From: a virus
Lineage: Duplodnaviria > Heunggongvirae > Uroviricota > Caudoviricetes
IMG/VR virus record: IMGVR_UViG_2721755724_000001
Direction: 5' to 3' (one strand)
Length of the DNA stretch: 30,675 bases
Shown here piece by piece: positions 1,659 through 29,813 of this stretch. A model generated the notes under the pieces. It saw only the letters and a program-made list of their open reading frames with translations. It ran no database searches and had not been told where the DNA came from. The position numbers were made by a program, and so were the translations under genes. Position 1 is the stretch's first letter, and each line of letters starts with the position of its first letter.

Positions 1659-4130
1659 TTAAGAATCAGCCTGACTCGGGATCAGTTTTTGCCAGATAAC
1701 TGAAACGTATTTTGCCTGGTAACGGGCGTCATCAAGTGCATTATGGCGCTCACCTTCGAATGGAATAGCCGTTCTGGCATCGAAGTCTATGGCTTTCCCC
1801 AGCTCAACGATTGTGCGTACATCGCGATCGTTGTAGTAACGCCACGGGCAGGGGATCCCCTGCCGTTCGTATGAACGGCGCAAAATCGTGTTGTCGAAGT
1901 TGGCTCCATTTCCCCAAACCTGAACAAAAAATTCACCGGAGTTTTCGTCGATAAATTCCCGCAATTGTAACAGTGCATCATCTAACGGGATTTCATCGGT
2001 CATAATGGCAGATTGCGCTTCGCGTGATTGCTTAAGCCACCATTTAATGGTGTTCCGATCAATGACTCCGCCAGCAGTTTCCAGATCGATAGTCTTACTA
2101 AATTCCGGTCCCATATCTCCGGTTTGCGGATCGAAAAATATTGCACCTATTGAGATGATCGGGGCATCAGGATTTTTTCCCATGGTTTCAAGGTCGATCA
2201 TTAGATGGTCACACGTCCTGCTGGTGGATGTGATTTCGTGATGACCGTTCACCTTAATTGAGTGATCTGCCGTCTCGCCAGTTTCATTATCGCTATTGTG
2301 ATGCTGATTGCCGCCAGTGTTCTCCTTGTGTGGATGTTCAGCGCCTTCCATTTCCTCCGGATCATCTTCCTGAACTTCAACCTGATATTCTTCATCGAAT
2401 GTTTCTTGATATGTTGCGTCGCCCATCACCGCGCCACAATCAGGGCAGTTGCCGCCGCCGGTCTGACCGCAGGCGGTGCAGACTTTTTCCACTTCCTGTT
2501 GCGCCACTGGTTCAGGCTGTTTCGTTTCTGGCTCGTTTTGTAACGCATTTGTGCTGTTTTGTTCCGCTTTTTGGTAGTTCCGTTCCGATTCATGCTGGTT
2601 CTGGTTCACAGAATCGCGGGTCTGGATCCCCTTAACCCATTTCGGATCATTCGGGTCACTAATCCCTTCAACAAATTCACCACGTGATGCAGCAAGCAAC
2701 TTATCGGCGTCAGGCTGGCTGATATTGGCTGCCTGCATAATTTTGTTTACTTCGTCAGCGGTAACTTTTATCGGCTCTGGTTGTTCTGAATCTTCAGCGG
2801 TATCTACATTTTGCGGTAAGCCCGTGTATGTGCCATTTTTTCGGGCAAAATATTCTTCTTTTGTGATTTCAGTGGCGCCAGCAGCCAGTGCCTTATCCAG
2901 ACCAGAAAGTTTGTTTGCGCGACCGTATTTTTCTCCGTCCTTATCTGCGAAGAGGAAATAGAACGGCCCCTCACGCTCTACAGATGGTTCAGCTTCCGGC
3001 GCGGTTTCATTTTTTGGGATATCAGATACCTCAGTTTCCACTGCATCAGTTTGTGTTTCTGATGACTGGAGAACATCAACAGTGCCCAGGTCTGTTTCTT
3101 CATTCTCAAACACGCCCTTTGTCGTCAGGTATTCGCAGATATATTTGTTCAGTGCTATGGGATCTTTGTGAATGTCGATCGGACGCTCACGGACAAGGCC
3201 AAAAATAGTCTGGCGGTCGTAGCGAAGGGCATCAGGCTGTTTGCGCATTGATGCCGAGATACGCTTCCAGTCTTCGCGGTCGTTGTCGATAACTTCTTTT
3301 TTTGCCCAGCGATGGATGCTGCCGTCAATGTTTCCGGCATCCACATCACCAGGCCAGAGAGCGTAGGCCAGTTCGTCATCCAGTGTTTTCCATGTCTGCT
3401 TGTATTCGCGATGAATGGCAGCAATGACCGGGCTGATTTTTCCTGTTGAATTTTCAGTGTACTGTTGATTGGCTCTGGCGCGGGCGAGATCAACAACAGA
3501 CGTGTATTTTCCGGTTTCCTTGCGTTCACCTTCGCGACGTTTTTTCCAGATGCGCATCTCTGCCTGAATTTCGGGCCATTTAGCACCAGGAATACATTTA
3601 TGCTTAACCCACCCAATGGCGTGCAACTTAAGCTCCGGATACATGGCGTTAACTTCTGGCATTTTCATCAACGCTTCAACGATATGTCCGTCGAATGTTG
3701 CCATGTCTTCCTGCAACAATTCCTGTGCGCTAATAACCATATCAACGGTGATGTTTTCACATGTGTCGAACTTAACCATGACAGCGTTCTGTACTTCAGG
3801 GGCCAGCTTGTCAAAAGTGACGTTCATCGGATCGGATTCAGTCTCAACCGGGACAAAAGAAGCAGACTCCTCATCCCAGCGGTTTTCCTGCATATATTCA
3901 GCATCCCATGAATCGAGGGCAGGGCGGGGTATGCCAGGTTTATCCTCGCAGACAATAAATTTATAAGCGCAGTCCTGAGCAGCCGGATAATGTTCCAGGA
4001 ACTGCCAGTGAAATTTTGCTCGAGCACGGCGTTCGTCGCCAGCTTCAATGGCTGTGGCTACAGCCACAGCGCCTTCTTCCCTTGTTGCCAGTTCGTCAGG
4101 AATAGCGGCGCAAATAAAGACTTTACTCAT
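1659..4130 (-). CDS. Large prophage exonuclease of the size usually annotated exodeoxyribonuclease VIII, with a C-terminal DnaQ-like DEDDh 3'-5' exonuclease domain
   Basis: 823-aa ORF; C-terminal about 190 aa carry Exo I (IDLETMG), Exo II (VWGNGANFDNTIL) and Exo III (HNALDDARYQA) motifs; acidic low-complexity middle region with a CxxC..CxxC cluster. Confidence 0.7.
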   Translation of the reverse strand: MSKVFICAAIPDELATREEGAVAVATAIEAGDERRARAKFHWQFLEHYPAAQDCAYKFIVCEDKPGIPRPALDSWDAEYMQENRWDEESASFVPVETESDPMNVTFDKLAPEVQNAVMVKFDTCENITVDMVISAQELLQEDMATFDGHIVEALMKMPEVNAMYPELKLHAIGWVKHKCIPGAKWPEIQAEMRIWKKRREGERKETGKYTSVVDLARARANQQYTENSTGKISPVIAAIHREYKQTWKTLDDELAYALWPGDVDAGNIDGSIHRWAKKEVIDNDREDWKRISASMRKQPDALRYDRQTIFGLVRERPIDIHKDPIALNKYICEYLTTKGVFENEETDLGTVDVLQSSETQTDAVETEVSDIPKNETAPEAEPSVEREGPFYFLFADKDGEKYGRANKLSGLDKALAAGATEITKEEYFARKNGTYTGLPQNVDTAEDSEQPEPIKVTADEVNKIMQAANISQPDADKLLAASRGEFVEGISDPNDPKWVKGIQTRDSVNQNQHESERNYQKAEQNSTNALQNEPETKQPEPVAQQEVEKVCTACGQTGGGNCPDCGAVMGDATYQETFDEEYQVEVQEDDPEEMEGAEHPHKENTGGNQHHNSDNETGETADHSIKVNGHHEITSTSRTCDHLMIDLETMGKNPDAPIISIGAIFFDPQTGDMGPEFSKTIDLETAGGVIDRNTIKWWLKQSREAQSAIMTDEIPLDDALLQLREFIDENSGEFFVQVWGNGANFDNTILRRSYERQGIPCPWRYYNDRDVRTIVELGKAIDFDARTAIPFEGERHNALDDARYQAKYVSVIWQKLIPSQADS

Positions 4131-4223: not shown

Positions 4224-4415
4224 TTAAAGACCTGCCGGGATTTCGATATTATCCTGGTGAATAACTTTATCGACCGGGTAACAGTTACCGGGAATTTTCT
4301 GTTCGGTTGCTGCAGTCATACACTCCTGCATTGTCCTGTGAACACTGACTGCAATATCAACTGGCTCTCCGGAAACAAGAAAAACTGTCAGAACAAGCGC
4401 AAATGCTGAATTCAT
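4224..4415 (-). CDS. ydfD: YdfD-like small lysis protein
   Basis: 63-aa product from the internal Met (MNSAFALVLTVFLVSGEP...), N-terminal hydrophobic segment; start overlaps the dicB stop as ATGA, as in the Qin dicB operon. Confidence 0.6.
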   Translation of the reverse strand: MNSAFALVLTVFLVSGEPVDIAVSVHRTMQECMTAATEQKIPGNCYPVDKVIHQDNIEIPAGL

Positions 4416-4600
4416 TGTGCACATCCTTTTGGCATCAGACGTAAACGAGCCAGCATTGAAACAATGCATATTTTATTTAATAGCTCCCGTTCTTGTTTTC
4501 TCTTGTTAATGGCATCTTCAGTAAATACAGGGTTACTGATAGTGACACCAATTTCAAAACAACCTTCAGACGTATTAACGTTTGGTAATAACGTTTTCAT
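4412..4600 (-). CDS. dicB: Cell division inhibitor DicB
   Basis: 62-aa product MKTLLPNVNTSEGCFEIGVTISNPVFTEDAINKRKQERELLNKICIVSMLARLRLMPKGCAQ matches DicB as I recall it; GAGGA Shine-Dalgarno 7 nt upstream; DicF lies immediately upstream. Confidence 0.8.
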   Translation of the reverse strand: MKTLLPNVNTSEGCFEIGVTISNPVFTEDAINKRKQERELLNKICIVSMLARLRLMPKGCAQ

Positions 4601-4770
4601 TATCGCGTCCTCAACAATGAATTTTGTGATGCAGTGCCTGGTGCCTCCAGGTGACGTTAACCAGTTAACAATTAACGCCGGATACAGAGAATCCACCCAT
4701 AACACTGTTTTTGGTTTTAACTGTTCCGCGTGCGCTTAGCCGCATTCACCGCATCACAAAATTCACTTTA

Positions 4771-4827
4771 AAAACGGCGGCAGAGCAGTCACGGAGTAAA
4801 ACTGATACCGCCAAACGTCACCAGAAA
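4771..4827 (-). ncRNA. dicF: DicF small RNA (ftsZ-targeting) with intrinsic terminator hairpin
   Basis: Minus-strand sequence UUUCUGGUGACGUUUGGCGGUAUCAGUUUUACUCCGUGACUGCUCUGCCGCC followed by GUUUUU matches DicF as recalled; GGCGG...CCGCC stem plus U-run. Confidence 0.85.
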
Positions 4828-4858
4828 ATTGATAACAGAGGGCGTTGCAGCGGGGTTG

Positions 4859-5089
4859 TCACTTAAGCGTATGGTCAACCTGACAACTCGGTGTCCTCAA
4901 CGGGGAAGGAATAACCCCGCCATACTTACCGCCGCGCCATTTCGCGGGTTGCCACAACCGGAAGCGCACGGTCGAATTAAATTTAACGACACCGTACAGT
5001 GAGACGAACTTCGCCGTGCGCTTTCGTGTTGTGTGCCTGCTTTTAACCACGTCAGGCGAGGTGGTATCCTTCTTATTCCGAATAACCAA
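4859..5089 (-). CDS. Small basic protein in the ydfC position of the dicB operon
   Basis: 76-aa ORF directly upstream of DicF on the same strand; only a TTG start is available; Arg/Lys-rich. Identity as YdfC is positional only. Confidence 0.4.
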   Translation of the reverse strand: MVIRNKKDTTSPDVVKSRHTTRKRTAKFVSLYGVVKFNSTVRFRLWQPAKWRGGKYGGVIPSPLRTPSCQVDHTLK

Positions 5090-5102
5090 GAAGGAAATCT
5101 AT

Positions 5103-5303
5103 ATGACTAAAGAAGAATTTGTCTCTTATATTTTTGATAAAACGGTTGAAATGTATGCCGCTACTTACGGGTCCTGTAATCCTCTGAATAAACCAGAGGG
5201 GAAAGATGATTTCGACAAAATTTACCGCTTCTTGGAGGACCGCTATATCAAAAGGTTAGAGGACGCAGGGATCAAATCCCCAGTGAAGTCACCATTGTCC
5301 TGA
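5103..5303 (+). CDS. Hypothetical small protein (66 aa)
   Basis: ATG preceded by AAGGAAA Shine-Dalgarno at good spacing; the opposite strand over this span contains no ATG, so Qin-type ydfA/ydfB are not encoded here. Confidence 0.4.
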   Translation: MTKEEFVSYIFDKTVEMYAATYGSCNPLNKPEGKDDFDKIYRFLEDRYIKRLEDAGIKSPVKSPLS

Positions 5304-5637
5304 GAACTTGCAGGACGTCATGATCGTAACTTCCATCCAAACCGCGACGGCAAATTGCTTCTCGTATTACCGGAAGCAGTTCGCTGGAAATCTCGGTGCA
5401 TATTTCACCTGCTAATACGCCTGGCTCAAGTGAGAATATTGGTGAACTTACGGTCTTGGTCTCGACAGTTTCAGAGTCAGTGCCAACATTATAAAGCTCA
5501 ACGAAAGCGGTCTTGATTTTCCGGGCCAGATCTTTTGCTGGCTCGCTTGCAATATCTTTCCCGATTTCTCGCAGCACAGAATGCAATGTATGAGCTGCTG
5601 TTTTCTGTACATCAGACGGTAAATCTTTAAATTCCAT
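5272..5637 (-). CDS. Hypothetical acidic protein (about 121 aa) in the position a DicA-type repressor would occupy
   Basis: Open frame MEFKDLPSDVQKTAAHTLHSVLREIG...; no recognisable helix-turn-helix by eye; start could also be the upstream ATG at 5649. Confidence 0.45.
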   Translation of the reverse strand: MEFKDLPSDVQKTAAHTLHSVLREIGKDIASEPAKDLARKIKTAFVELYNVGTDSETVETKTVSSPIFSLEPGVLAGEICTEISSELLPVIREAICRRGLDGSYDHDVLQVLRTMVTSLGI

Positions 5638-5849
5638 CGTCAGCCTCATCAGTCAGTGTTTCTGGCTAACCAGCAACGCGCGCCAGATTCGGTTTTAAAC
5701 GTTTTGCTTTTGGTATATGTCATCGCGGTGAACGTACCGTCCTGGTTGGGGAACACGCCACATACAGGAGGCATCTGGCGGCGAGCTTCTGTATGATCCC
5801 AAGGTTTATGACGAATATCGTAAGACGAAGCGGGCGGGGCGGTTGAACA
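5638..5849. promoter_or_regulatory. Divergent intergenic region, probable immunity/early promoter-operator region
   Basis: About 210 bp between divergently oriented genes; contains the palindrome AAACGTTT and the dicC remnant. No operator repeats confidently identified. Confidence 0.3.
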
Positions 5850-5866
5850 ATGAAAATCACTCCTGA
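5732..5866 (+). pseudogene. dicC: 3' remnant of Cro-like repressor gene dicC
   Basis: Frame encodes ...QEASGGELLYDPKVYDEYRKTKRAGRLNNENHS*, matching the C-terminus of DicC as recalled; the frame is closed by a stop at 5729 with no start codon, so only about 44 codons remain. Confidence 0.45.
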
Positions 5867-6371
5867 ACAGGCTCGTGAGGCTCTGGATGCCTGGATATGT
5901 CGACCAGGAATGACACAGGAGCAGGCGACGATATTAATCACTGAAGCATTCTGGGCTTTGAAAGAGCGCCCGAACATCGATGTTCAGCGTGTCACAGATG
6001 AAGGTGGCGCGGTTGATCAGCGAGCGCTTGGCGTTAATCGAGTGAAGATATTCGAACGCTGGAAGGCTATCGACACTAGGGATAAGCGTGAAAAGTTCAC
6101 GGCGCTAGTGCCTGCAATTATGGAGGCTATCCGGATTAATGATTTCAGGTTGTATCGTGAAATTAGTGACGGAAAAAGCATCACGTACATGATCGCCGGG
6201 TTAAACAAAGAATATGGCGATGTGGTGGAGTCCGGACTGCTTTTTGCTGATCCTGCCGTAGTGGATCGTGAAACTGACGAACTTATAGAAAAAGCAATTG
6301 CTTTCAAACTTGCGTATCGACAGCAATACCAACAAAAAGCTGGATGGAATTATGAGCCTTCTTTTTGCTGA
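5850..6371 (+). CDS. Hypothetical phage early protein (173 aa)
   Basis: ATG-initiated ORF downstream of the cro-like remnant and upstream of the replication initiator; family not recognised. Confidence 0.55.
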   Translation: MKITPEQAREALDAWICRPGMTQEQATILITEAFWALKERPNIDVQRVTDEGGAVDQRALGVNRVKIFERWKAIDTRDKREKFTALVPAIMEAIRINDFRLYREISDGKSITYMIAGLNKEYGDVVESGLLFADPAVVDRETDELIEKAIAFKLAYRQQYQQKAGWNYEPSFC

Positions 6372-7317
6372 ACGCCCACTGGTTATAAACACACAGCTTG
6401 CGATGAAGATTGGCTTAAATGAAGCCATTGTGTTGCAGCAGTTGCATTACTGGTTGAGAGATACCAATTCCGGCATGGAATGTGATGGTGTTCGCTGGAT
6501 TTACAACACAACGGAACAATGGCTGGAACAGTTCCCATTCTGGTCAGAGTCAACGTTAAAGCGCGCGTTTGCAAGTCTGAAAACGCTGGGGCTTTTGCGT
6601 TGTGAAAAGCTCAATAAATCAAAGCGCGATATGACCAATTTCTACACGATCAACTATGGGAACGAGCTTTTAGATGGTGGCAAATTGAACGAATCCATCG
6701 GTTCAAAATGCGCCGCTCCATCAGGTCAAAATGACACGATGGAAGAGGTCAAAATGAAACGCTCCATTGGTTCAAAACGACCCAATGTCATCGGGTCAAA
6801 ATGGCCTGATGATCTTACAGAGAATACAACAGAGATTACTACAGAGAATAAAAACACTTTTCGTCCGGAAGCTTCGCAACCGGACCCGCAGACCGCTGAA
6901 CAGGATTTTTTAATCCGGAACCCCGACGCGGTTGTGTTTAGTGCGAAAAAACGCCAGTGGGGTAGCAGGGAGGATTTGGCGTGTGCGCAGTGGATTTGGG
7001 GGCGGATCGTGAACCTTTACGAACAGGCTGCCAGCGACGATGGAGAGATCATGCGACCAAAAGAGCCTAACTGGACAGCCTGGGCCAATGACGTGCGCAC
7101 AATGCGGATGCTGGATGGCAGAAGCCACAGACAAATTTGCGAAATGTTTGGTCGGGTACAGCGAGATCCATTCTGGGTAAAAAACATCATGAGCCCGTCA
7201 AAACTCCGCGAAAAATGGGACGAACTGGTCATCCGCTTGGGACGTTCACCTGTACAGCGTTGTGTGAATCATATTTCTGAACCGGATACAGAAATTCCGC
7301 CTGGTTTCAGGGGATAA
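6352..7317 (+). CDS. Phage replication initiator / replisome organizer (O-like)
   Basis: N-terminal winged-helix-like region (ERPLVINTQLAMKIGLNEAIVLQQLHYWL...), a central linker encoded by an iteron array, and a C-terminal region resembling DnaT/replication protein C-termini; start taken as the ATG at 6352. Confidence 0.65.
   Translation: MSLLFAERPLVINTQLAMKIGLNEAIVLQQLHYWLRDTNSGMECDGVRWIYNTTEQWLEQFPFWSESTLKRAFASLKTLGLLRCEKLNKSKRDMTNFYTINYGNELLDGGKLNESIGSKCAAPSGQNDTMEEVKMKRSIGSKRPNVIGSKWPDDLTENTTEITTENKNTFRPEASQPDPQTAEQDFLIRNPDAVVFSAKKRQWGSREDLACAQWIWGRIVNLYEQAASDDGEIMRPKEPNWTAWANDVRTMRMLDGRSHRQICEMFGRVQRDPFWVKNIMSPSKLREKWDELVIRLGRSPVQRCVNHISEPDTEIPPGFRG
6695..6805 (+). repeat. Five direct iterons (core GGTCAAAATG-like) at 23-24 bp spacing, followed by an A-rich stretch: probable phage origin inside the initiator gene
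   Basis: TCAAAA cores at 6703, 6726, 6749, 6772 and 6796; A/T-rich ACAGAGAATACAACAGAGATTACTACAGAGAATAAAAACAC follows at 6810-6850. Confidence 0.6.
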
Positions 7318-7644
7318 GTGTTGATTTCAGGTCATGAGGTAATTTTAAGGAGGACTTGTGGCAAAAGTTTTTACACAGGAAGAGCGGGAAAAAATTAAAG
7401 AGCAGGTGGTCGAACTTGTGCGCCAGAGCGGTCGCGAGACATTACGACAGTTGGAAGCTAAAACAGGTGCGACAAGATATCTGATGAGCATTCTTGCCAG
7501 AGAGCTGGTTGCCAGTGGTTATGTATACAACTCCGGCTACGGGTTATTCCCGTCTGAACAGGCACGAAAGGACTGGCAAAATGCCCGCAAAAAACTCTCT
7601 AGGGCGAAGGTGAAGAAACCCGCTGTGGTTGATTGGATTTGCCC

Positions 7645-8550
7645 CTATATTTCCAGACATCTGTTATCACTTAACCCATTACAAGCCCGCTGCCGCAGAT
7701 ATTCCCGTGGCGAGCGATAACCCAGCGCACTATGCGGATGCCATTCGTTATAATGCTCGAACGCCTCTGCAAGGTTCTTTGCTGCCGTTAACCCGTCTGG
7801 TTTGGGCATGATACTGATGTAGTCACGCTTTATCGTTTTCACGAAGCTCTCTGCTATTCCGTTACTCTCCGGACTCCGCACCGCCGTGTTCTTCGGTTCA
7901 AGTCCCAACATCCGGGCGAACTGGCGTGTTTCATTAGCCCGGTAGCATGAACCATTATCCGTCAGCCACTCCACTGGAGACGACGGAAGATCGTTGCCGA
8001 AGCGGCGTTCCACCGCTCCCAGCATGACGTCCTGTACTGTTTCACTGTTGAAGCCGCCGGTAGTGACCGCCCAGTGCAGTGCCTCACGATCACAGCAGTC
8101 CAGCGCGAACGTGACACGCAGTCTCTCTCCGTTATCACAGCAGAACTCGAACCCGTCAGAGCACCATCGCTGATTGCTTTCTTTCACGGCCACTCTGCCT
8201 GTATGTGCCCGTTTCGATGGCGGTACAGCAGGTTTTCGCTCAAGCAACAGCGCATTCTGGCGCATGATCCGGTAAACACGTTTGGCATTGATCGCAGGCA
8301 TACCATCAAGTTCTGCCTGTCTGCGAAGCAGCGCCCATACCCGACGATAACCATACGTGGGCAGCTCTCCGATAACATGGTGTATACGGAGAAGCACATC
8401 CGTATCATCAGTGTGACGACTGCGGCGGCCATCCATCCAGTCATCGGTTCGTCTGAGAATGACGTGCAACTGCGCACGCGACACCCGGAGACAACGGCTG
8501 ACTAAGCTTACTCCCCATCCCCGGGCAATAAGGGCGCGTGCGCTATCCAC
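7645..8550 (-). CDS. insD: IS2 transposase OrfB (InsD), full length
   Basis: 301-aa ORF ending ...[37 protein letters not shown]; normally expressed as an InsCD frameshift fusion. Confidence 0.9.
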
Positions 8551-8873
8551 TTTTTTGCCCGTCCATATTCAACGGCTTCTTTGAGGAGTTCATTTTCCAT
8601 CGTTTTCTTGCCGAGCAGGCGCTGGAGTTCTTTAATCTGCTTCATGGCGGCAGCAAGTTCAGAGGCAGGAACAACCTGTTCTCCGGCGGCGACAGCAGTA
8701 AGACTTCCTTCCTGGTATTGCTTACGCCAGAGAAATAACTGGCTGGCTGCTACACCATGTTGCCGGGCAACGAGGGAGACCGTCATCCCCGGTTCAAAGC
8801 TCTGCTGAACAATTGCGATCTTTTCCTGTGTGGTACGCCGTCTGCGTTTCTCCGGCCCTAAGACATCAATCAT
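8508..8873 (-). CDS. insC: IS2 transposase OrfA (InsC)
   Basis: 121-aa product [26 protein letters not shown]... matches IS2 InsC. Confidence 0.9.
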
Positions 8874-9273
8874 CTGTTCTCCAATGACTAGTCTAAAAAC
8901 TAGTATTAAGACTATCACTTATTTAAGTGATATTGGTTGTCTGGAGATTCAGGGGGCCAGTCTATTGATCCGGACCTTATCTGGTCACTACCTGATGGAG
9001 AAATACGTCGCTACGACAGTCGTCTAAACATAATCTGTCGCGAGTGCCGGAAGAGCGAAGTTATGCAGCGCATACTGGCATTTTATCAGTGAAATTTTCG
9101 TTATTTATAGACGTAACTAGATTAAAGAGCATTAGTTCAGATGTGAATTGACATTTTCACGGCACAGGATTGAGCTAGCGTGGTTGTCTGCTTTGCGTCA
9201 AAAGCAGATATTACCAGATTTAGACATCTATTCCCGATAGCCCTGCTCTGATGCCACACTCTGTGCTATTTTC

Positions 9274-13087: not shown

Positions 13088-13385
13088 CTGTATGCGATAT
13101 CATCTGAAAGTGATGAGTTCCTGTATGCAGGATATTTACAATCGTAAAAACTACGCTATGATGCTCATAGTGTCAGTTTTTATAAAAATCCTGTTCACGC
13201 TAAAGAAAACATTGAGATGCAATTTAATGTTGGTAAACATACCAGCCCCAAAAGATTTTATTCAATCTGTTTTTATATGAAGATATTTCAAGTGAATATA
13301 AAGAGCATATAATATTATTATTGCACGCAGGGTGATGCTGCCAACTTACTGATTTAGTGTATGATGGTGTTTTTGAGGTGCTCCA

Positions 13386-13661
13386 GTGGCTTCTGTTTCT
13401 ATCAGCTGTCCCTCCTGTTCAGCTACTGACGGGGTGGTGCGTAACGGCAAAAGCACTGCCGGACATCAGCGCTATCTCTGCTCTCACTGCCGTAAAACAT
13501 GGCAACTGCAGTTCACTTACACCGCTTCTCAACCCGGTACGCACCAGAAAATCATTGATATGGCCATGAATGGCGTTGGATGCCGGGCAACTGCCCGCAT
13601 TATGGGCGTTGGCCTCAACACGATTTTACGTCACTTAAAAAACTCAGGCCGCAGTCGGTAA
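13386..13661 (+). CDS. insA: IS1 InsA
   Basis: 91-aa product [37 protein letters not shown]... matches IS1 InsA. Confidence 0.95.
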
Positions 13662-14084
13662 CCTCGCGCATACAACCGGGCAGCGATGTGATTGTCTGCG
13701 CTGAAATGGACGAACAGTGGGGCTACGTAGGTGCTAAATCACGTCAGCGCTGGCTGTTTTACGCGTATGACAGGATACGGAGGACGGTTGTGGCGCACGT
13801 CTTCGGTGAACGCACTCTGGCCACACTGGAGCGTCTTCTGAGCCTGCTGTCGGCCCTTTGACGTGGTGATATGGATGACGGATGGCTGGCCGCTGTATGA
13901 ATCCCGCCTGAAGGGAAAGCTGCACGTAATCAGCAAGCGATATACGCAGCGAATTGAGCGGCATAACCTGAATCTGAGGCAGCACCTGGCACGGCTGGGA
14001 CGGAAGTCGCTGTCGTTCTCAAAATCGGTGGAGCTGCATGACAAAGTCATCGGGCATTATCTGAACATAAAACACTATCAATAA
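13580..14084 (+). pseudogene. insB: IS1 insB, frameshifted
   Basis: InsB-homologous sequence is split into two frames around 13855-13865 (...LSLLSAL* then [15 protein letters not shown]...), consistent with a 1-bp insertion relative to canonical IS1. Confidence 0.75.
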
Positions 14085-14271
14085 GTTGGAGTCATTACCT
14101 GCACGCAGCTATTATAATATAACAGATTAGTTTAATGATTTGTTTTTTGTGAGTTAAACACATGGTTTTATAGTTGTGATGCAATGAGATTTTCCTTATT
14201 GTTGAACTGGCGAATATTGATTTTCCACCTATACTTACCTGGTGTAACCCCAATGATATCAGGTGGATAAT

Positions 14272-14985
14272 ATGCCATACATATGTTCTATCATTTTGGT
14301 GTTGAACTCGTTTGGTGTCCGAATTGGTAAAGAAGATATTTTGTTTAAAAAAGGAAATGCTGTCCTCATTGAATACAATTTAAAAGATCTTTTTTCGTCA
14401 AATACAGATCATCTAATGATCGTAGATATTGAGGAGAAAACAGTTAATGATTTCTTTAAAAACTACACACTCTCACCTTTTTCTGTAAGAAGGTTTTATC
14501 CGTCATACTTGATAGTAGAATGTGAAGATTTTTCATTGTTAAGGAACTTGGTTGCATGCTTGAATTGTGATAGCAAAACCGTGGATGTAGTTAGAAATCA
14601 AATATCACTTGCATGTCTTGCTGTCTTATCTTCAGAGAAAATAGTGCAAAGTTTTTTGTTCGGAAGTCTTAATAGCTTAGGTTGTAAAGTTAAGGCTATT
14701 ATTCACTCGGATATCTCAGCGTCATGGAGACTTTGTGATATATCTTCAAGATTATATATGAGCGAGAGTTTGTTAAAAAGAAAATTAAAAGACGAAGGAT
14801 TATCGTTTAGTAAATTAATTCTTGAAGAACGAATGATGATGGCGCAAAGATTATTGATCTACAGTAACCATACTGTCGGCAAGGTGGCGGGAATATGCGG
14901 GTATGACAATGCATCATATTTTGTAAGTGTTTTTAGAGGATATTTTGGTGTGCCTCCGCACCAATATTTATCAAGATTTTCTTAG
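14272..14985 (+). CDS. AraC-family transcriptional regulator (AppY/Rns-like)
   Basis: About 237 aa from the ATG at 14272 (AGGTGG Shine-Dalgarno); C-terminal AraC helix-turn-helix (AGICGYDNASYFVSVFRGYFGVPPHQY); visibly AT-rich gene. Confidence 0.8.
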   Translation: MPYICSIILVLNSFGVRIGKEDILFKKGNAVLIEYNLKDLFSSNTDHLMIVDIEEKTVNDFFKNYTLSPFSVRRFYPSYLIVECEDFSLLRNLVACLNCDSKTVDVVRNQISLACLAVLSSEKIVQSFLFGSLNSLGCKVKAIIHSDISASWRLCDISSRLYMSESLLKRKLKDEGLSFSKLILEERMMMAQRLLIYSNHTVGKVAGICGYDNASYFVSVFRGYFGVPPHQYLSRFS

Positions 14986-17296: not shown

Positions 17297-17659
17297 ATTA
17301 ATATTAAATCGGATTATTTTTAGCGCTGAATGTGAAATTTAAATAAAAAGGACTCTTCCATGAGTCAAAATCCTTGAAATCTTAAGGGTAAGATAAAAGG
17401 TCATTAGACAGAATGACACGTTTTATTAATAAATAAAGCTATTGTTTCATTCGTGTGTTTTTCTTTACAAAAGTAATCCTTGCTATGGTTGGTTAATCAT
17501 GCGTTAATGGTGTTCTGGTTTGTTACAAAATTATCTGAAGCAGTCATTGTTATAATTTTATTATTTGTACCTCTTGAGATTTCCTTGTTGGTTTTTCTCT
17601 CTGATATTTTTTTTCGGACCATTCTGCCCAAGGGCTAACTTCTTCAAAAGGTAATAATG

Positions 17660-17872
17660 ATGTCTAACACAATGACTGGTTTAGTGAAATGGTTTAACCC
17701 TGAAAAAGGTTTTGGTTTCATCACGCCGAAAGATGGTAGCAAAGATGTGTTTGTCCATTTCTCAGCTATTCAGAGCAACGATTTCAAAACGTTAACTGAG
17801 AATCAGGAAGTCGAATTTGGTATTGAGAACGGACCTAAAGGCCCCGCGGCTGTTCATGTTGTGGCACTTTGA
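17660..17872 (+). CDS. cspI: Cold-shock protein, CspA family (CspI-like)
   Basis: 70-aa product [70 protein letters not shown]; preceded by a long AT-rich leader of about 350 bp. Confidence 0.85.
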
Positions 17873-18071
17873 GGTAGAAAATATTACAAACCATATTCAC
17901 TTTAGATGCCCGTGTTGCCATGGTTCTCAGTATAGAACATCATCTTTTGATGTTTCTGACAGGAATCCTTTCGGGGCAAAATGTATCTTTTGTAAATCAA
18001 TGATGATTACATTTGATAATATTTCACAATACTTAAATGTTAGCCGTCTATCGTTAGATTTAAGAAAGTGA
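17856..18071 (+). CDS. Small Cys-rich protein in the ynfN position (possible zinc ribbon)
   Basis: Frame encoding ...[41 protein letters not shown]...; start uncertain; position after cspI matches Qin gene order. Confidence 0.4.
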
Positions 18072-18100: not shown

Positions 18101-18257
18101 CTTAGTGTCTAGTCGATGGATACTCACATATTACGGTAACATTATGAAAAAAATAATAGTTTTTTTAACTCTGAACCAGCAATGGTAGTGCCAGTGATGA
18201 CCGGAGTTAACACCATCATGCGTGAATTGATCCTACCCACGTAATATGGACACAGGC

Positions 18258-19124
18258 CTAAGCGAGGTTCTTGTTTTCAAATTGTTCCGGACTGAGGCCG
18301 CCACACCAACTGTGCCGCCGCCACCGATTGTAATCACATTCGATATAATTAAACACCGTTGCCCGCATTATTTCCCGGCTGATAAAGTGTTCTCCATGGA
18401 TACATTCCACTTTCAGCGAATGAAAGAAGCTTTCCACGCAGGCATTATCGTAGCAGCAACCTTTTGCGCTCATACTTCCACGCAGATTATGCCGCTTCAG
18501 TTGCGCCTGATAATCTGCTGAACAGTACTGGCCTCCACGGTCCGTGTGAACGATAACGTTCCGGGGCCTCTTACGCCGCCACAGCGCCATCTGCAGGGCA
18601 TCGCAGGCCAGTTGCGCCGTCATGCGTGGCGACATTGACCAGCCAATAACGGCACGTGACCACAGGTCAATGACCACTGCCAGATACAGCCAGCCTTCAT
18701 CTGTACGTAAGTACGTGATGTCTCCTGCCCACTTCTGGTTCGGGCCACTGGCGTAAAAATCCTGCTCCAACAGATTTTCTGACACAGGCAGGCCGTGTGC
18801 GCGGTAGCTGACCGGGCTGAACTTCCGGGAGGCCTTTGCCCTCAGTCCCTGACGGCGCAGGCTTGCCGCCACGGTTTTTACGTTAAAGGGGTAACCCTGA
18901 GCACGCAGTTCATCCGTCAGGCGTGGGGCACCGTAACGCTGTTTTGACCGGGTAAAAGCCGCGAGGACAACGCTGTCGCAGTGTTGGCGGAACTGCTGAC
19001 GCGTGCTTATCCTTGTCCGCCGCTGACACCACGTATACCAGCCGCTGCGGGCCACCCGGAGCACGCGGCACATTGCTTTGATGCTGAACTCAGCCTGATG
19101 TTTTTCAATAAAGACATACTTCAT
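18258..19124 (-). CDS. insF: IS3 transposase OrfB (InsF)
   Basis: 288-aa ORF matching IS3 InsF (DDE catalytic region); normally expressed as an OrfAB frameshift fusion. Confidence 0.9.
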
Positions 19125-19420
19125 TTCAGGCGCTTCGCGAAGTATGTCGCGGCCTTTTGGAGGATAGCCAGCTCTTCATCCCGTTCTGCCAGCTGGCGTT
19201 TGAGACGTGCAATCTCGGTAGACATCTCCAGTTCACGTTCAGAAGACGTCTGCTGATTTTGCTGTTTACTGCGCCAGTTGTAGAGTTGTGATTCATACAG
19301 GCTGAGTTCACGGGCTGCGGCAGTAACACCGATGCGTTCAGCAAGCTTCAGGGCTTCACTGCGAAATTCAGGCGAATGCTGTTTACGGGGTTTTTTACTG
19401 GTTGATACTGTTTTTGTCAT
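19121..19420 (-). CDS. insE: IS3 transposase OrfA (InsE)
   Basis: 99-aa product [31 protein letters not shown]... matches IS3 InsE. Confidence 0.9.
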
Positions 19421-19806
19421 GTGAGTCACCTCTGACTGAGAGTTTACTCACTTAGCCGCGTGTCCACTATTGCTGGGTAAGATCAAATATCCAAATGGCG
19501 AAACAACACACCTCACTGTAATGGCTGCAGGGTTTCCATCTCTGACCGGAGATCATAAAGTCATTTATGTAGCAGCGGATCGACATGTAACTTCAGAAGA
19601 AATTCTGGAAGCAGCAATGAGACTCTTGAATTGATTTGATTCTAATGCATTGATAATAAATGATAATCATCTTTATCTGTTTGTGTGAAATTTAGACCGT
19701 CGTATGTTGATTATTGCGATGTTTCATCTTATCTTTTATACGTTTGCTCCATATAATTGACACTACTGTGTACCAGGAAAGTCATAACAGACTAAAAGAG
19801 GAAATG

Positions 19807-25700: not shown

Positions 25701-27612
25701 CGACAAGGTCGGGGGACTCGTCAGCCCGATGACGCAATACGATTGGCCCGTTGTTACTGGTAATGAGTCTTTTTACATAAAGATCGCGAAACTTTCCGAT
25801 CCCGGAAGCAACAATTGCCATGTAACGCTAATGGTTACTAACGGCGGTGACTACGGCTCCCCTTACGGAAACATTGACTTTATCGAGATCTCGGCGCGCG
25901 GTCTGCCTTCTTCGCTTACTGCTGATAATGTATCTCGTTACCTGAGTATACGCCGTTTAGGGCCAACCGGGCTAATCAATAGCATGCAAATGCGTTACGG
26001 CCTGGTTAAAGATGATGGCTTTATTGAGGTTTGGGCCTTCCAGCGTGCATTTATCAACGGCGCAAAGGTTGCGGTACTGGCGCAGACGGCACGCACGGAA
26101 TTATACATTCCAGACGGATTTGTTAAGCAAACCGCCGCGCCTTCTGGATATGTTGAAAGCCCCGTTGTAAGGATTTACGACCAGTTAAACAAGCCGACTA
26201 AAGCAGATTTGGGTCTTTCTAATGCTATGCTTACAGGCGCTTTCGGTCTTGGCGGTAGCGGGATATCAACAAACGGCAAGATGAGCGATGTAGAGATCTT
26301 AAAAGCTCTGCGTGACAAAGGTGGTCATTTCTGGCGCGGTGATAAGCCGACCGGAAGCACGGCGACCATTTATAGCCACGGTTCTGGTATATTCTCGCGG
26401 TGCGGCGATACGTGGTCAGCGATCAATATCGACTACTCAACCGCGAAGATTAAGATCTATGCCGGCAACGATGCCCGGCTTAACAACGGGACTTTTAGCA
26501 TCAATGAGCTATACGGCTCGGCAAACAAGCCGTCGAAATCGGATGTTGGACTTGGCAACGTAACGAACGATGCGCAGGTAAAAAAAACCGGCGATACAAT
26601 GACCTGTGACTTGACAATCAAAAAAGGTACACCGTCAGTCTTCCTGCGGGCAGACAGTGGAGTCACCGCTTTGCGGTTTTATACTGGCGATAACACAGAG
26701 CGCGGCATAATCTATGCTGGTCCTAACACTGATTCGCTTGGCGAAGTTCGCATCAGGGCAAAGACAGCAGGGGGGACATCAGGAGGGGATCTTGTTGTTC
26801 GTCACGACGGGAGGGTTGAAGTCCGTGATCTCACAGTAGCGTATAAAATTAAAAGCAGAACGATTGAGATTGCAAATACCGACACTGACTCATCGGCAAC
26901 TACGCTCAGCATCTATGGAGTACAGCACACGCCGTTGGTTTTAACGCGTTCTGGTTCTTCTGAAAATGTGTCCATTGGGTTTAAGTTAGACAACATGAAC
27001 CCAAAGTATCTTGGAATTGATACTAATGGGGATCTGGCTTTTGGTGAGAGTCCTGATCAGAAACAAAACAGCAAATTGATCACGCAAGCGAAACTCGACA
27101 AGGGATTAACGATTGGTGGTCAACTGGCTTTCAAAGGTACGACAGCGTTTTCAGCCGTTGCTACGTTCAGTGCCGGGATAGCAGGAGCCATCGAGCCGGA
27201 AAACATTGACGGCCAGACGGTTAATCTTAACAACCTGACCATCATCAAGTCAGATGCCGGGGCAGTTAAATACTATATTTGTCCATCCTCTGCAGGTGGT
27301 GCAAATATTACCAATAAGCCTGACGGCATAGCCGGTAACTTTTTGCTCCGTGTAGAGTCGACTCGTAAGGTTAGGGATTCAGATTATGCGAACATGCAAA
27401 CGCTGATTAACAGCGACACAAAACGTATATACGTTCGCTTTGTTGTTAATGGAAACTGGACAGCGTGGAGTCAGGTTGTTGTTTCCGGATGGAATCAGGA
27501 TATAACTGTCAGGTCGTTAACTAGACTGGCCCCCTGAATCTCCAGACAACCAATATCACTTAAATAAGTGATAGTCTTAATACTAGTTTTTAGACTAGTC
27601 ATTGGAGAACAG

Positions 27613-27978
27613 ATGATTGATGTCTTAGGGCCGGAGAAACGCAGACGGCGTACCACACAGGAAAAGATCGCAATTGTTCAGCAGAGCTTTGAACCGGGGA
27701 TGACGGTCTCCCTCGTTGCCCGGCAACATGGTGTAGCAGCCAGCCAGTTATTTCTCTGGCGTAAGCAATACCAGGAAGGAAGTCTTACTGCTGTCGCCGC
27801 CGGAGAACAGGTTGTTCCTGCCTCTGAACTTGCTGCCGCCATGAAGCAGATTAAAGAACTCCAGCGCCTGCTCGGCAAGAAAACGATGGAAAATGAACTC
27901 CTCAAAGAAGCCGTTGAATATGGACGGGCAAAAAAGTGGATAGCGCACGCGCCCTTATTGCCCGGGGATGGGGAGTAA
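27613..27978 (+). CDS. insC: IS2 transposase OrfA (InsC), copy 2
   Basis: Identical 121-aa product to copy 1. Confidence 0.9.
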
Positions 27979-28757
27979 GCTTAGTCAGCCGTTGTCTCCG
28001 GGTGTCGCGTGCGCAGTTGCACGTCATTCTCAGACGAACCGATGACTGGATGGATGGCCGCCGCAGTCGTCACACTGATGATACGGATGTGCTTCTCCGT
28101 ATACACCATGTTATCGGAGAGCTGCCCACGTATGGTTATCGTCGGGTATGGGCGCTGCTTCGCAGACAGGCAGAACTTGATGGTATGCCTGCGATCAATG
28201 CCAAACGTGTTTACCGGATCATGCGCCAGAATGCGCTGTTGCTTGAGCGAAAACCTGCTGTACCGCCATCGAAACGGGCACATACAGGCAGAGTGGCCGT
28301 GAAAGAAAGCAATCAGCGATGGTGCTCTGACGGGTTCGAGTTCTGCTGTGATAACGGAGAGAGACTGCGTGTCACGTTCGCGCTGGACTGCTGTGATCGT
28401 GAGGCACTGCACTGGGCGGTCACTACCGGCGGCTTCAACAGTGAAACAGTACAGGACGTCATGCTGGGAGCGGTGGAACGCCGCTTCGGCAACGATCTTC
28501 CGTCGTCTCCAGTGGAGTGGCTGACGGATAATGGTTCATGCTACCGGGCTAATGAAACACGCCAGTTCGCCCGGATGTTGGGACTTGAACCGAAGAACAC
28601 GGCGGTGCGGAGTCCGGAGAGTAACGGAATAGCAGAGAGCTTCGTGAAAACGATAAAGCGTGACTACATCAGTATCATGCCCAAACCAGACGGGTTAACG
28701 GCAGCAAAGAACCTTGCAGAGGCGTTCGAGCATTATAACGAATGGCAATCCGCATAG
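27936..28757 (+). pseudogene. insD: IS2 insD, copy 2, frameshifted near the 3' end
   Basis: Copy 2 reads GAATGGCAATCCGCA where copy 1 reads GAATGGCATCCGCA (one extra A), giving ...EHYNEWQSA* (273 aa) in place of the 301-aa product. Confidence 0.8.
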
Positions 28758-29813
28758 TGCGCTGGGTTATCGCTCGCCACGGGAATATCTGCGGCAGCGG
28801 GCTTGTAATGGGTTAAGTGATAACAGATGTCTGGAAATATAGGGGCAAATCCATTAACCACATCTAGTCCGGTAAAATCTGGCGGAGGGCGAATTGATGT
28901 CCTTGGAAGCACGTCAGACTATAGCAAAATGGATTGCTTTGTACGTGGGTTTGATAGCACCGGTAATTCTCTCGCGTGGGCGTTGGGTTCATCAGCCGGC
29001 GTAAGTAAGATGCTGTCGCTAAAAAATTTCTTTAGCGGAGCTGAGATACTGTTAAATGGTAATGACGGCACGGTTCAACTCAAAACAGGTGCTGTTAACG
29101 GGGCTACAGCGCAGGCGCTCACTATCAACAGGAATGAGGTTAACTCAACTGTTGATTTAACCCTTACAAAACAATCAGGGACTGGCAATCGTTTTGTTTT
29201 ACAGAACTCAGGTAATGCAGAACTACCGTTTTCTGTCAGGGTGTGGGGTTCCAGTACTCGACAAAACGTTTTTGAGGTTGGCACGTCTGCTGCGTATCTG
29301 TTTTATGCGCAAAAAACGTCAGCAGGCCAGTTGTTTGATGTAAATGGCGCTATTAATTGCACAACGCTGAATCAGTCATCAGACCGCGACCTTAAAGACG
29401 ATATTCTCGTTATCAGCGACGCGACGAAAGCAATCCGTAAAATGAACGGATACACCTACACGCTCAGGGAAAACGGGATGCCTTATGCTGGCGTTATTGC
29501 ACAGGAAGTAATGGAGGCGATACCAGAAGCTGTGGGATCGTTTACTCATTATGGTGAAGAGTTGCAAGGTCCGACCGTTGACGGCAACGAGCTACGCGAA
29601 GAAACGCGCTATCTTAATGTTGACTACGCCGCCGTGACGGGCTTACTTGTTCAGTTCGCCCGTGAAACAGATGATCGCGTTACCGCGCTGGAAGAGGAAA
29701 ACACAACGCTACGTCAAAATCTGGCAACAGCAGACACCCGGATCAGCACTCTGGAAAATCAGGTAAGCGAACTGGTTGCACTTGTCCGGCAGTTAACAGG
29801 AAGCGAACATTGA

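What the first reader, a model, noticed from the sequence alone, without database searches (positions are those of the whole stretch)
5272..5866. Mosaic immunity region: dicC reduced to a 3' remnant and no DicA-type repressor next to the dicB operon
In Qin the dicB operon is repressed by the helix-turn-helix protein DicA, encoded divergently from dicC. Here only the last roughly 44 codons of a dicC-like frame survive (frame closed at 5729, no start codon), and the gene in the dicA position encodes an acidic 121-aa protein with no obvious helix-turn-helix. Either the toxic dicB operon is controlled by an unrecognised repressor or a trans-acting one, or the promoter was lost at the same junction.
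Basis: partly seen in the sequence, partly recalled or inferred. Interest (0 to 1): 0.6.

Follow-up and report, generated by a model that had tools for sequence, protein, structure and literature searches.

The report
Deletion scar removing Qin immunity switch
A defective prophage in this E. coli chromosome has lost, in one clean ~840-base deletion, its repressor gene together with both promoters that the repressor controlled, so the toxic dicB operon is left without a repressor but also without its promoter; this is ordinary prophage decay, not a new control system.

Summary
The dicC remnant and the missing DicA are real, but the region is a simple deletion scar, not a mosaic. Close intact relatives (99.9-100% identical flanks) carry 840 extra bases exactly between window 5765 and 5766. 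That segment holds ydfA codons 1-12, the ydfA-dicA spacer with the dicB-operon promoter and operators, a DicA-family repressor gene, the dicA-dicC spacer with the dicC promoter, and dicC codons 1-41. The junction has 3 bases of microhomology (TAC).

The 121-aa acidic ORF is not in the dicA position. It matches no repressor family.

No DicA homologue, operator motif or minus-strand promoter-like site remains nearby. The operon is therefore most likely silent, which would explain survival without a repressor that is essential in K-12.

The scar occurs in 13 of 5426 complete E. coli genomes. One oddity is unresolved: the identical junction sits on two backgrounds whose intact relatives carry different, heteroimmune immunity modules. 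Interest is low.

The parts
4412..4600 (-). dicB, intact cell-division inhibitor gene (62 aa)
   Evidence: 100% identical to K-12 DicB; annotated dicB in identical genomes
4775..4826 (-). DicF small RNA gene, full length
   Evidence: Rfam RF00039, 72.5 bits against a gathering score of 48, model positions 1-52 of 52
5103..5303 (+). 66-aa ORF of unknown function, convergent with the 121-aa ORF and overlapping it by 32 nt; part of the variable module that replaces K-12 ydfB and ydfC
   Evidence: PHROG 34441, 1.5e-50, unknown function; no Pfam, NCBIfam or PADLOC match; present in intact relatives
5272..5637 (-). 121-aa acidic ORF of unknown function, second gene of the dicB operon in this prophage type; not in the dicA position
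   Evidence: PHROG 33007, 4e-82, unknown function; no Pfam, NCBIfam, PADLOC or PDB match; pI 5.0; the same gene lies downstream of ydfA in dicA+ relatives, including BL21(DE3)
5649..5774 (-). truncated ydfA (DUF1391). Residues 13-50 are retained (5652-5765). Codons 1-12 are deleted and replaced by three chance codons (ATG CCT CCT, 5766-5774) read from the antisense of dicC
   Evidence: Pfam PF07151, 5e-21, profile positions 12-47 of 48; tblastn YdfA residues 13-50 at 100%; junction mapping
5763..5765 (.). deletion junction, 3-nt microhomology TAC. Intact relatives have 840 bp (immA type) or 819 bp (BL21 type) here
   Evidence: Base-by-base extension of both flanks against L001; alignment; LR-31 against BL21
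5763..5866 (+). dicC 3' remnant (codon 42 partial, codons 43-75 and the stop); no start codon and no promoter
   Evidence: PGAP pseudogene at window 5762-5866
5850..6371 (+). ydaT-like / CII-like gene. Its start overlaps the dicC stop, and it was formerly transcribed from the deleted dicC promoter
   Evidence: Pfam YdaT_toxin 1.2e-5; PHROG 163 CII-like 2e-40
6352..7317 (+). phage O-like replication gene, next gene of the rightward early operon that has lost its promoter
   Evidence: Annotated 'phage O protein family' in relatives
7634..8964 (-). IS2 inserted in the DUF977 gene; its transposase reads on the - strand toward the dicB operon, 1.9 kb upstream of the junction
   Evidence: blastn against annotated loci; annotation; shared by 7 of the 9 window-type carriers

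Best explanation
The window is the Qin-site lambdoid cryptic prophage, between rspB and ydfJ. One illegitimate, microhomology-type deletion (TAC; 840 bp relative to the nearest intact relatives) removed its whole immunity switch. Lost were the DicA-family repressor gene, the leftward promoter and operators (dicBp equivalent), the rightward promoter and operators (dicC promoter), the first 41 codons of dicC and the first 12 codons of ydfA. What remains is a dicB operon (ydfA'-121aa-DicF-dicB-ydfD) and a rightward operon (dicC'-ydaT-O...) with intact downstream genes but no repressor, no operators and no native promoter. Shown: the deletion, its exact content, and the absence of any DicA homologue, operator motif or promoter-like site nearby. 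Inferred: both early operons are transcriptionally silent, so losing the repressor together with its target promoter is what makes the loss of an otherwise essential repressor tolerable. The 121-aa and 66-aa ORFs are ordinary cargo of this prophage type and play no part in immunity.
For: - Relatives with 99.9% identical flanks match the window in two pieces spanning 2841 instead of 2001 bases. The extra DNA is annotated as an HTH protein plus a Cro/CI regulator.
- Left homology runs to window 5765 and right homology starts at 5763, so the overlap is TAC. The deleted segment is L001 2867-3706: 36 + 192 + 408 + 77 + 127 = 840 nt.
- The lost genes are a DicA subfamily member (NCBIfam NF007257, 239 bits against a cutoff of 101) and a DicC (NF007282, 165 bits).
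- The lost spacers hold the only promoter-like sites: TTGACG-17-TAAATT toward ydfA and TTGACT-18-TAGCAT toward dicC. They also hold three copies of an operator-like repeat, TGAGAAAACTCA.
- In the window there is no operator-like match near the early region, no - strand promoter-like site in 4300-7700, and no DicA homologue by tblastn.
- In K-12 the dicBF transcript starts at dicBp upstream of ydfA, no other promoter was found, and DicA represses dicBp 22-fold (PMC10448788).
- dicA is Keio-essential but variably present among strains (PMC5992433, PMC11481867).
- The scar is real: 13 complete genomes and one metagenome contig carry it.
- Downstream genes are undecayed: DicB is 100% identical to K-12 DicB and DicF is full length.
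Against: Silence of the operon is inferred, not measured. The promoter scan is a crude consensus match and would miss weak or non-sigma-70 promoters. One older study, cited in PMC10448788, proposed a promoter upstream of dicB. An IS2 lies 1.9 kb upstream with its transposase on the same strand, so read-through is possible. The middle of the operon differs from K-12 (the 121-aa and 66-aa module replaces ydfB and ydfC), so K-12 transcript data may not transfer fully. The rest of the carrier genomes was not searched for a second DicA.
Confidence: 0.85

Rival explanations
1. The dicB operon is still expressed at a low, tolerated level. Transcription would come from read-through antisense to ydaT-O (for example out of the IS2 at 7634-8964, whose transposase is on the same strand) or from a weak internal promoter. 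DicF and DicB would then be made constitutively without any repressor.
For: IS2 orientation and position. dicB and DicF are undecayed. One older report of a promoter upstream of dicB is cited in PMC10448788.
Against: 2 of the 9 window-type carriers (NT1F25, CH4784) were not among the records matching this IS2 insertion, and NT1F25's annotation shows none there. There is a terminator-like site on the - strand at 7234-7218 and no - strand promoter-like site in 4300-7700. PMC10448788 found no evidence for an internal promoter in K-12. The flanks are almost identical to those of intact relatives, so lack of decay may only mean the deletion is recent.
Confidence: 0.15
2. A DicA-type repressor encoded by another prophage in the same genome represses the operon in trans.
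For: E. coli genomes often carry several lambdoid prophages, and the junction query matched a second place in one carrier (NT1F25).
Against: The operator-bearing spacers and the promoter are deleted, so a repressor would have nothing to bind. DicA modules at this locus are heteroimmune (52-57% identity, different operator sequences), so cross-repression would require the same type.
Confidence: 0.04
3. The 121-aa acidic protein is an unrecognised repressor that replaced DicA.
For: It has no assigned function. Its N-terminal ~52 residues are a conserved helical module shared with other phage ORFs.
Against: It coexists with intact dicA in the same position in relatives, including BL21(DE3) and REL606. 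It lies downstream of ydfA inside the operon. It has no HTH or any Pfam, NCBIfam or PDB match. It is acidic (pI 5.0). No promoter or operator is left for it to act on.
Confidence: 0.02
4. The junction is a mosaic module-exchange point between heterologous phages rather than a deletion.
For: This locus is mosaic in other respects. Three heteroimmune dicA-dicC modules exist, and the ydfB-ydfC region is replaced relative to K-12.
Against: Both flanks are colinear with single intact relatives, with 0 and 3 differences over 1866 and 1838 nt. Both bordering genes are truncated mid-codon, and no foreign DNA sits at the junction.
Confidence: 0.02

Closest known systems
dicA-dicC immunity locus and dicBp of cryptic prophage Qin, E. 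coli K-12 (Bejar et al. 1988; Ragunathan et al. 2023, PMC10448788)
   Same: Same chromosomal site (rspB/ydfJ) and same gene order: dicC / dicA / ydfA ... DicF, dicB, ydfD. DicB is 100% identical, DicF is full length, and the ydfA and dicC 3' parts are homologous.
   Different: dicA, both operator and promoter spacers, dicC codons 1-41 and ydfA codons 1-12 are absent here. The nearest intact ancestor type carried a heteroimmune DicA (57% identical to K-12 DicA) with different operators. ydfB and ydfC are replaced by the 121-aa and 66-aa module.
Intact Qin-site prophages of E. coli WP8-S17-ESBL-05 (NZ_AP022215.1) and of E. coli B / BL21(DE3) / REL606
   Same: The flanks are essentially identical to the two deletion haplotypes: 0-3 SNPs in 3.7 kb for the window type, and 0 SNPs in 3.9 kb for the LR-31 type against BL21. 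They have the same 121-aa and 66-aa ORFs.
   Different: They retain the 840-bp or 819-bp immunity segment.
Other conditionally essential cryptic-prophage repressors (racR of Rac, cohE of e14)
   Same: In each case a repressor is needed only because it silences toxic prophage genes, and it is variably present among strains (PMC5992433).
   Different: Here the natural allele shows how the repressor was lost without toxicity, by co-deletion of its target promoters. No experiment was done on this allele.

Membership tests
Intact Qin-type (DicA/DicC) lambdoid immunity locus | DicA-family XRE-type HTH repressor gene between ydfA and dicC | tested here: not met
   tblastn with three DicA variants against the whole window, best E = 0.64; the gene lies in the 840 bp missing from the window
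Intact Qin-type (DicA/DicC) lambdoid immunity locus | Full-length DicC (P22 Cro-like) gene with a start codon | tested here: not met
   Only residues 42-75 remain; there is no start codon and the frame is closed at 5729
Intact Qin-type (DicA/DicC) lambdoid immunity locus | Divergent promoters with repeated operators in the dicA-dicC and dicA-ydfA spacers | tested here: not met
   Operator-like TGAGAAAACTCA (3 copies) and both promoter-like sites lie in L001 2979-3566, inside the deleted segment. Nothing equivalent is present in the window's early region
dicBF operon | DicF RNA gene and dicB ORF in order downstream of ydfA | tested here: met
   Rfam RF00039 72.5 bits; DicB 100% identical to K-12; DUF1391 ORF upstream
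dicBF operon | Promoter dicBp upstream of a complete ydfA | tested here: not met
   ydfA lacks codons 1-12 and the whole upstream spacer
Known repressor families (XRE/CI/Cro, Arc/MetJ and others), as candidates for the 121-aa protein | Significant match to a DNA-binding domain family or a solved repressor structure | tested here: not met
   Pfam 0, NCBIfam 0, PADLOC 0. PDB profile search, best E = 0.048 (archaeal histone, 26 residues). The AF2 model has low confidence (pLDDT 59.5) and is helical, so no fold search was run
Microhomology-type illegitimate deletion scar | Colinear flanks identical to an intact relative, a short junction microhomology, and truncated genes on both sides | tested here: met
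   0 of 1866 and 3 of 1838 flank differences; TAC overlap; ydfA and dicC both truncated

The most novel reading that the evidence does not exclude
The immunity module of Qin-type prophages is lost recurrently by the same precise deletion. The identical junction (…GCCACATAC|AGGAGGCATC…) occurs on two backgrounds, and each is otherwise identical to a different intact relative carrying a different, heteroimmune dicA-dicC module (840 bp lost from the immA type, 819 bp from the BL21 type). This could mean a hotspot or a directed mechanism that excises the switch from conserved flanks, rather than one event spread by very short-patch recombination.
Probability: 0.25. Interest if true: 0.4.

Novelty: already known. 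Interest (0 to 1): 0.15.

Why it matters
The finding matters little beyond bookkeeping. It shows that an apparently repressor-less toxic operon needs no hidden regulator, because the repressor and the promoters it controlled went in one deletion. It is a clean natural example of how a conditionally essential prophage repressor (dicA is essential in K-12) can be lost safely. It also warns against reading such scars as new regulatory architectures. The one point that might repay work is why the same junction appears on two heteroimmune backgrounds.

Tried and rejected
- Family searches for the 121-aa and 66-aa ORFs (Pfam, NCBIfam, PADLOC) found nothing. PHROGs returned only families of unknown function.
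- A homologue search for the 121-aa protein gave only 'hypothetical protein' entries from Enterobacteriaceae.
- The AlphaFold model built from 14 sequences had pLDDT 59.5, too poor for a fold search, so none was run.
- A PDB profile search gave nothing significant.
- A search for direct or inverted repeats that could bridge the two deletion endpoints found nothing conserved beyond TAC. The repeats found are the operator and promoter symmetry inside the deleted segment.
- A comparison from memory of the endpoints with serine-invertase (gix/pix-like) and tyrosine-integrase core sites showed no convincing match. This was not a formal test.
- A junction-pattern scan of GTDB species representatives gave no hit. 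The metagenome scan gave one contig, of the window type only, so no third haplotype was found.
- The AraC-family gene at 14272-14985 was considered as a substitute repressor and rejected: wrong family and wrong position.
- Several early script calls failed on file names and two family searches failed on coordinates. None of this affects the results.

Full report
**What is there**

The window is an entire, IS-ridden cryptic lambdoid prophage at the Qin site, between rspB and ydfJ. On the - strand it carries int, xis, an 823-aa exonuclease, ydfD, dicB (4412-4600; 62 aa, 100% identical to K-12 DicB) and DicF (4775-4826; Rfam RF00039, 72.5 bits).

Upstream of DicF on the - strand lie two ORFs:
- the 121-aa ORF (5272-5637);
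It is a truncated ydfA (Pfam DUF1391, 5e-21, profile positions 12-47 of 48; residues 13-50 are 100% identical to an intact YdfA).

A 66-aa ORF (5103-5303, + strand) converges on the 121-aa ORF and overlaps it. On the + strand the frame ending ...PKVYDEYRKTKRAGRLNNENHS* (stop at 5864-5866) is closed by TGA at 5729 and has no start codon. tblastn aligns it to DicC residues 42-75. It overlaps the start of a ydaT/CII-like gene (5850-6371), which is followed by an O-like gene.

**The deletion**

A megablast of 4400-6400 against 5426 complete E. coli genomes found nine records with a contiguous 100% match. Many others, at 99.9%, matched in two pieces spanning 2841 instead of 2001 bases. Their extra DNA is annotated as a helix-turn-helix protein and a Cro/CI regulator.

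In one such relative (NZ_AP022215.1, locus L001) the gene order is ydfA (-), a 135-aa HTH gene (-), a 75-aa Cro/CI gene (+), then ydaT (+). Extending the two flanks base by base shows that left homology holds to window 5765 and right homology starts at 5763. The junction is therefore a 3-base overlap, TAC, and 840 bp (L001 2867-3706) are missing.

The missing segment consists of:

| Content | Length (nt) |
|---|---|
| ydfA codons 1-12 | 36 |
| ydfA-dicA spacer | 192 |
| repressor gene | 408 |
| dicA-dicC spacer | 77 |
| first part of dicC | 127 |

. The flanks are otherwise identical or nearly so: 0 differences in 1866 nt on the left and 3 in 1838 nt on the right. This is a deletion scar, not a mosaic junction.

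The first 10-11 are the antisense of ydfA. On the other strand the deletion created a chance ATG-CCT-CCT start fused in frame to ydfA codon 13.

**What was lost**

The missing repressor is a DicA subfamily member (NCBIfam NF007257, 239 bits against a cutoff of 101; Pfam HTH_3). The missing Cro-like gene is a DicC (NF007282, 165 bits; Pfam P22_Cro).

This DicA is only 57% identical to K-12 DicA. The DNA of the repressor, the operators and the 5' part of dicC is diverged from K-12, while the flanks are conserved. In other words, it is a heteroimmune module.

In the intact relative, the only promoter-like sites in 2700-3900 are TTGACG-17-TAAATT, pointing into ydfA, and TTGACT-18-TAGCAT, pointing into dicC. 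Both are overlapped or flanked by an operator-like repeat, TGAGAAAACTCA, found at 2982-2993, 3018-3029 and 3554-3565. All of these lie inside the deleted segment.

The window has:
- no operator-like match near the early region, only two chance-level 2-mismatch hits elsewhere;
- no - strand promoter-like site between 4300 and 7700;
- no DicA homologue anywhere (best tblastn E = 0.64).

The only other HTH gene noticed (14272-14985) is AraC-family and sits between Q and the holin gene.

**How it most likely works**

In K-12 the dicBF transcript starts at dicBp, upstream of ydfA in the dicA-ydfA spacer, which carries three operators. DicA represses it 22-fold. No other promoter was found, and induction is toxic (PMC10448788). 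dicA is one of the Keio essential genes but is variably present among strains (PMC5992433, PMC11481867).

The deletion removes the equivalent spacer completely. My inference is that both early operons (leftward ydfA'-121aa-DicF-dicB-ydfD and rightward dicC'-ydaT-O) are now promoterless and silent. That would explain why loss of the repressor is tolerated. The deletion and its content are shown; the silence is inferred.

Caveats:
- The promoter scan is crude.
- The operon's middle differs from K-12.
- An IS2 (7634-8964) lies 1.9 kb upstream with its transposase on the same strand, so read-through cannot be excluded. However, two of the nine window-type carriers (NT1F25 and CH4784) were not among the records matching this IS2 insertion, and NT1F25's annotation shows none there. 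There is also a terminator-like site at 7234-7218 on the - strand.

**The 121-aa ORF**

It is acidic (pI 5.0) and has no Pfam, NCBIfam, PADLOC or PDB match. It belongs to PHROG 33007, of unknown function; its N-terminal ~52 residues are shared with four other PHROGs of unknown function. All homologues are 'hypothetical' proteins from Enterobacteriaceae. An AlphaFold model was low-confidence (pLDDT 59.5): two long N-terminal helices, a disordered linker and two short helices.

Decisively, the same gene and the 66-aa ORF sit in the same place in relatives that still have dicA, including BL21(DE3). Together they replace K-12 ydfB and ydfC. Window-to-K-12 homology stops at 5044 and resumes in ydfA. 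The gene is therefore cargo of the operon, not a stand-in for DicA.

**Distribution, and an unexplained detail**

A 131-nt query across the junction is fully covered in 13 records of the 5426-genome collection: nine at 100% identity and four at 97.7% (LR-31, HCM-25C-3, and F11 deposited as two records). One metagenome contig is of the window type, and no GTDB species representative has the junction.

The LR-31 type has exactly the same junction. However, its flanks are 100% identical over 2001 + 1892 nt to E. coli B / BL21(DE3), which carries 819 bp there with a third heteroimmune module. BL21 DicA is 52% identical to the immA type and 57% to K-12.

Each deletion haplotype thus equals its own intact relative minus the immunity module. 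The nearest markers that distinguish the two backgrounds are 353 nt to the left and 25 nt to the right of the junction. There are two possible explanations:
- One deletion was copied into the other background through a patch of 380 nt or less, or by conversion of the flanks up to the heterology boundary.
- The same deletion arose twice.

I found no repeat or structure that would make this a hotspot, and I cannot decide between the two explanations.

**Verdict**

The anatomy was misread, because the truncated ydfA was missed and the 121-aa gene was misplaced. Of the three offered interpretations, only 'promoter lost at the same junction' is supported. This is ordinary decay of a cryptic prophage, and PGAP already flags it as a pseudogene. 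Interest is low.

Noticed in passing
window 5763-5765; L005 (LR-31) 2564-2566; L006 (BL21(DE3)) 2002-2820: The identical deletion junction occurs on two haplotypes. Each is otherwise identical to a different intact relative with a different, heteroimmune dicA-dicC module (840 bp against 819 bp lost). The origin, single event plus short-patch transfer or recurrent deletion, is unresolved.
   Followed up: partly
L001 2903-3706; L006 2038-2820; L004 (K-12) 2621-3508: At least three heteroimmune DicA/DicC modules occupy the same Qin locus in E. coli (DicA 52-57% identical pairwise). They sit between conserved flanks: the ydfA 5' end plus leader on one side and dicC codons ~34-75 on the other. The immA type has the operator-like repeat TGAGAAAACTCA instead of K-12 Oc (TTGTTAGTCATAACTAACAA).
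   Followed up: partly
window 5782: A G-to-C change 17 nt right of the junction is shared by all nine window-type carriers. It is absent from the intact relatives, K-12 and the LR-31 type. It may be a later mutation or a by-product of the deletion event.
   Followed up: no
window 5103-5303 (+) and 5272-5637 (-): A 66-aa ORF lies antisense inside the dicB operon, converging on the 121-aa ORF with a 32-nt overlap. The pair replaces K-12 ydfB and ydfC and has no known function. The first ~52 residues of the 121-aa protein are a conserved module fused to different C-termini in other phage ORFs.
   Followed up: partly
window 7634-8964, 13331-14099, 18228-19485, 27522-28853: There are four IS insertions in the prophage: IS2 in the DUF977 gene, IS1, IS3, and a second IS2 in a tail-fibre gene. 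Terminase and tail genes are reduced to fused fragments. The first IS2 is shared by 7 of the 9 window-type carriers and reads toward the dicB operon.
   Followed up: partly
L008 (metagenome contig OHAB01019023.1) 1-55; window 5377: A metagenome copy of the same deletion allele has an IS3 end joined at window position 5377, inside the 121-aa ORF. This is further decay of the orphaned operon.
   Followed up: no
window 14272-14985 (+): A 237-aa AraC-family regulator gene (Pfam HTH_18, HTH_AraC) sits between the Q antiterminator gene and the holin gene, in the usual moron position.
   Followed up: partly
window 17502-17899 (+): An Rfam cspA thermoregulator match (109 bits) covers the 5' leader and coding region of the prophage cold-shock gene cspI.
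   Followed up: no
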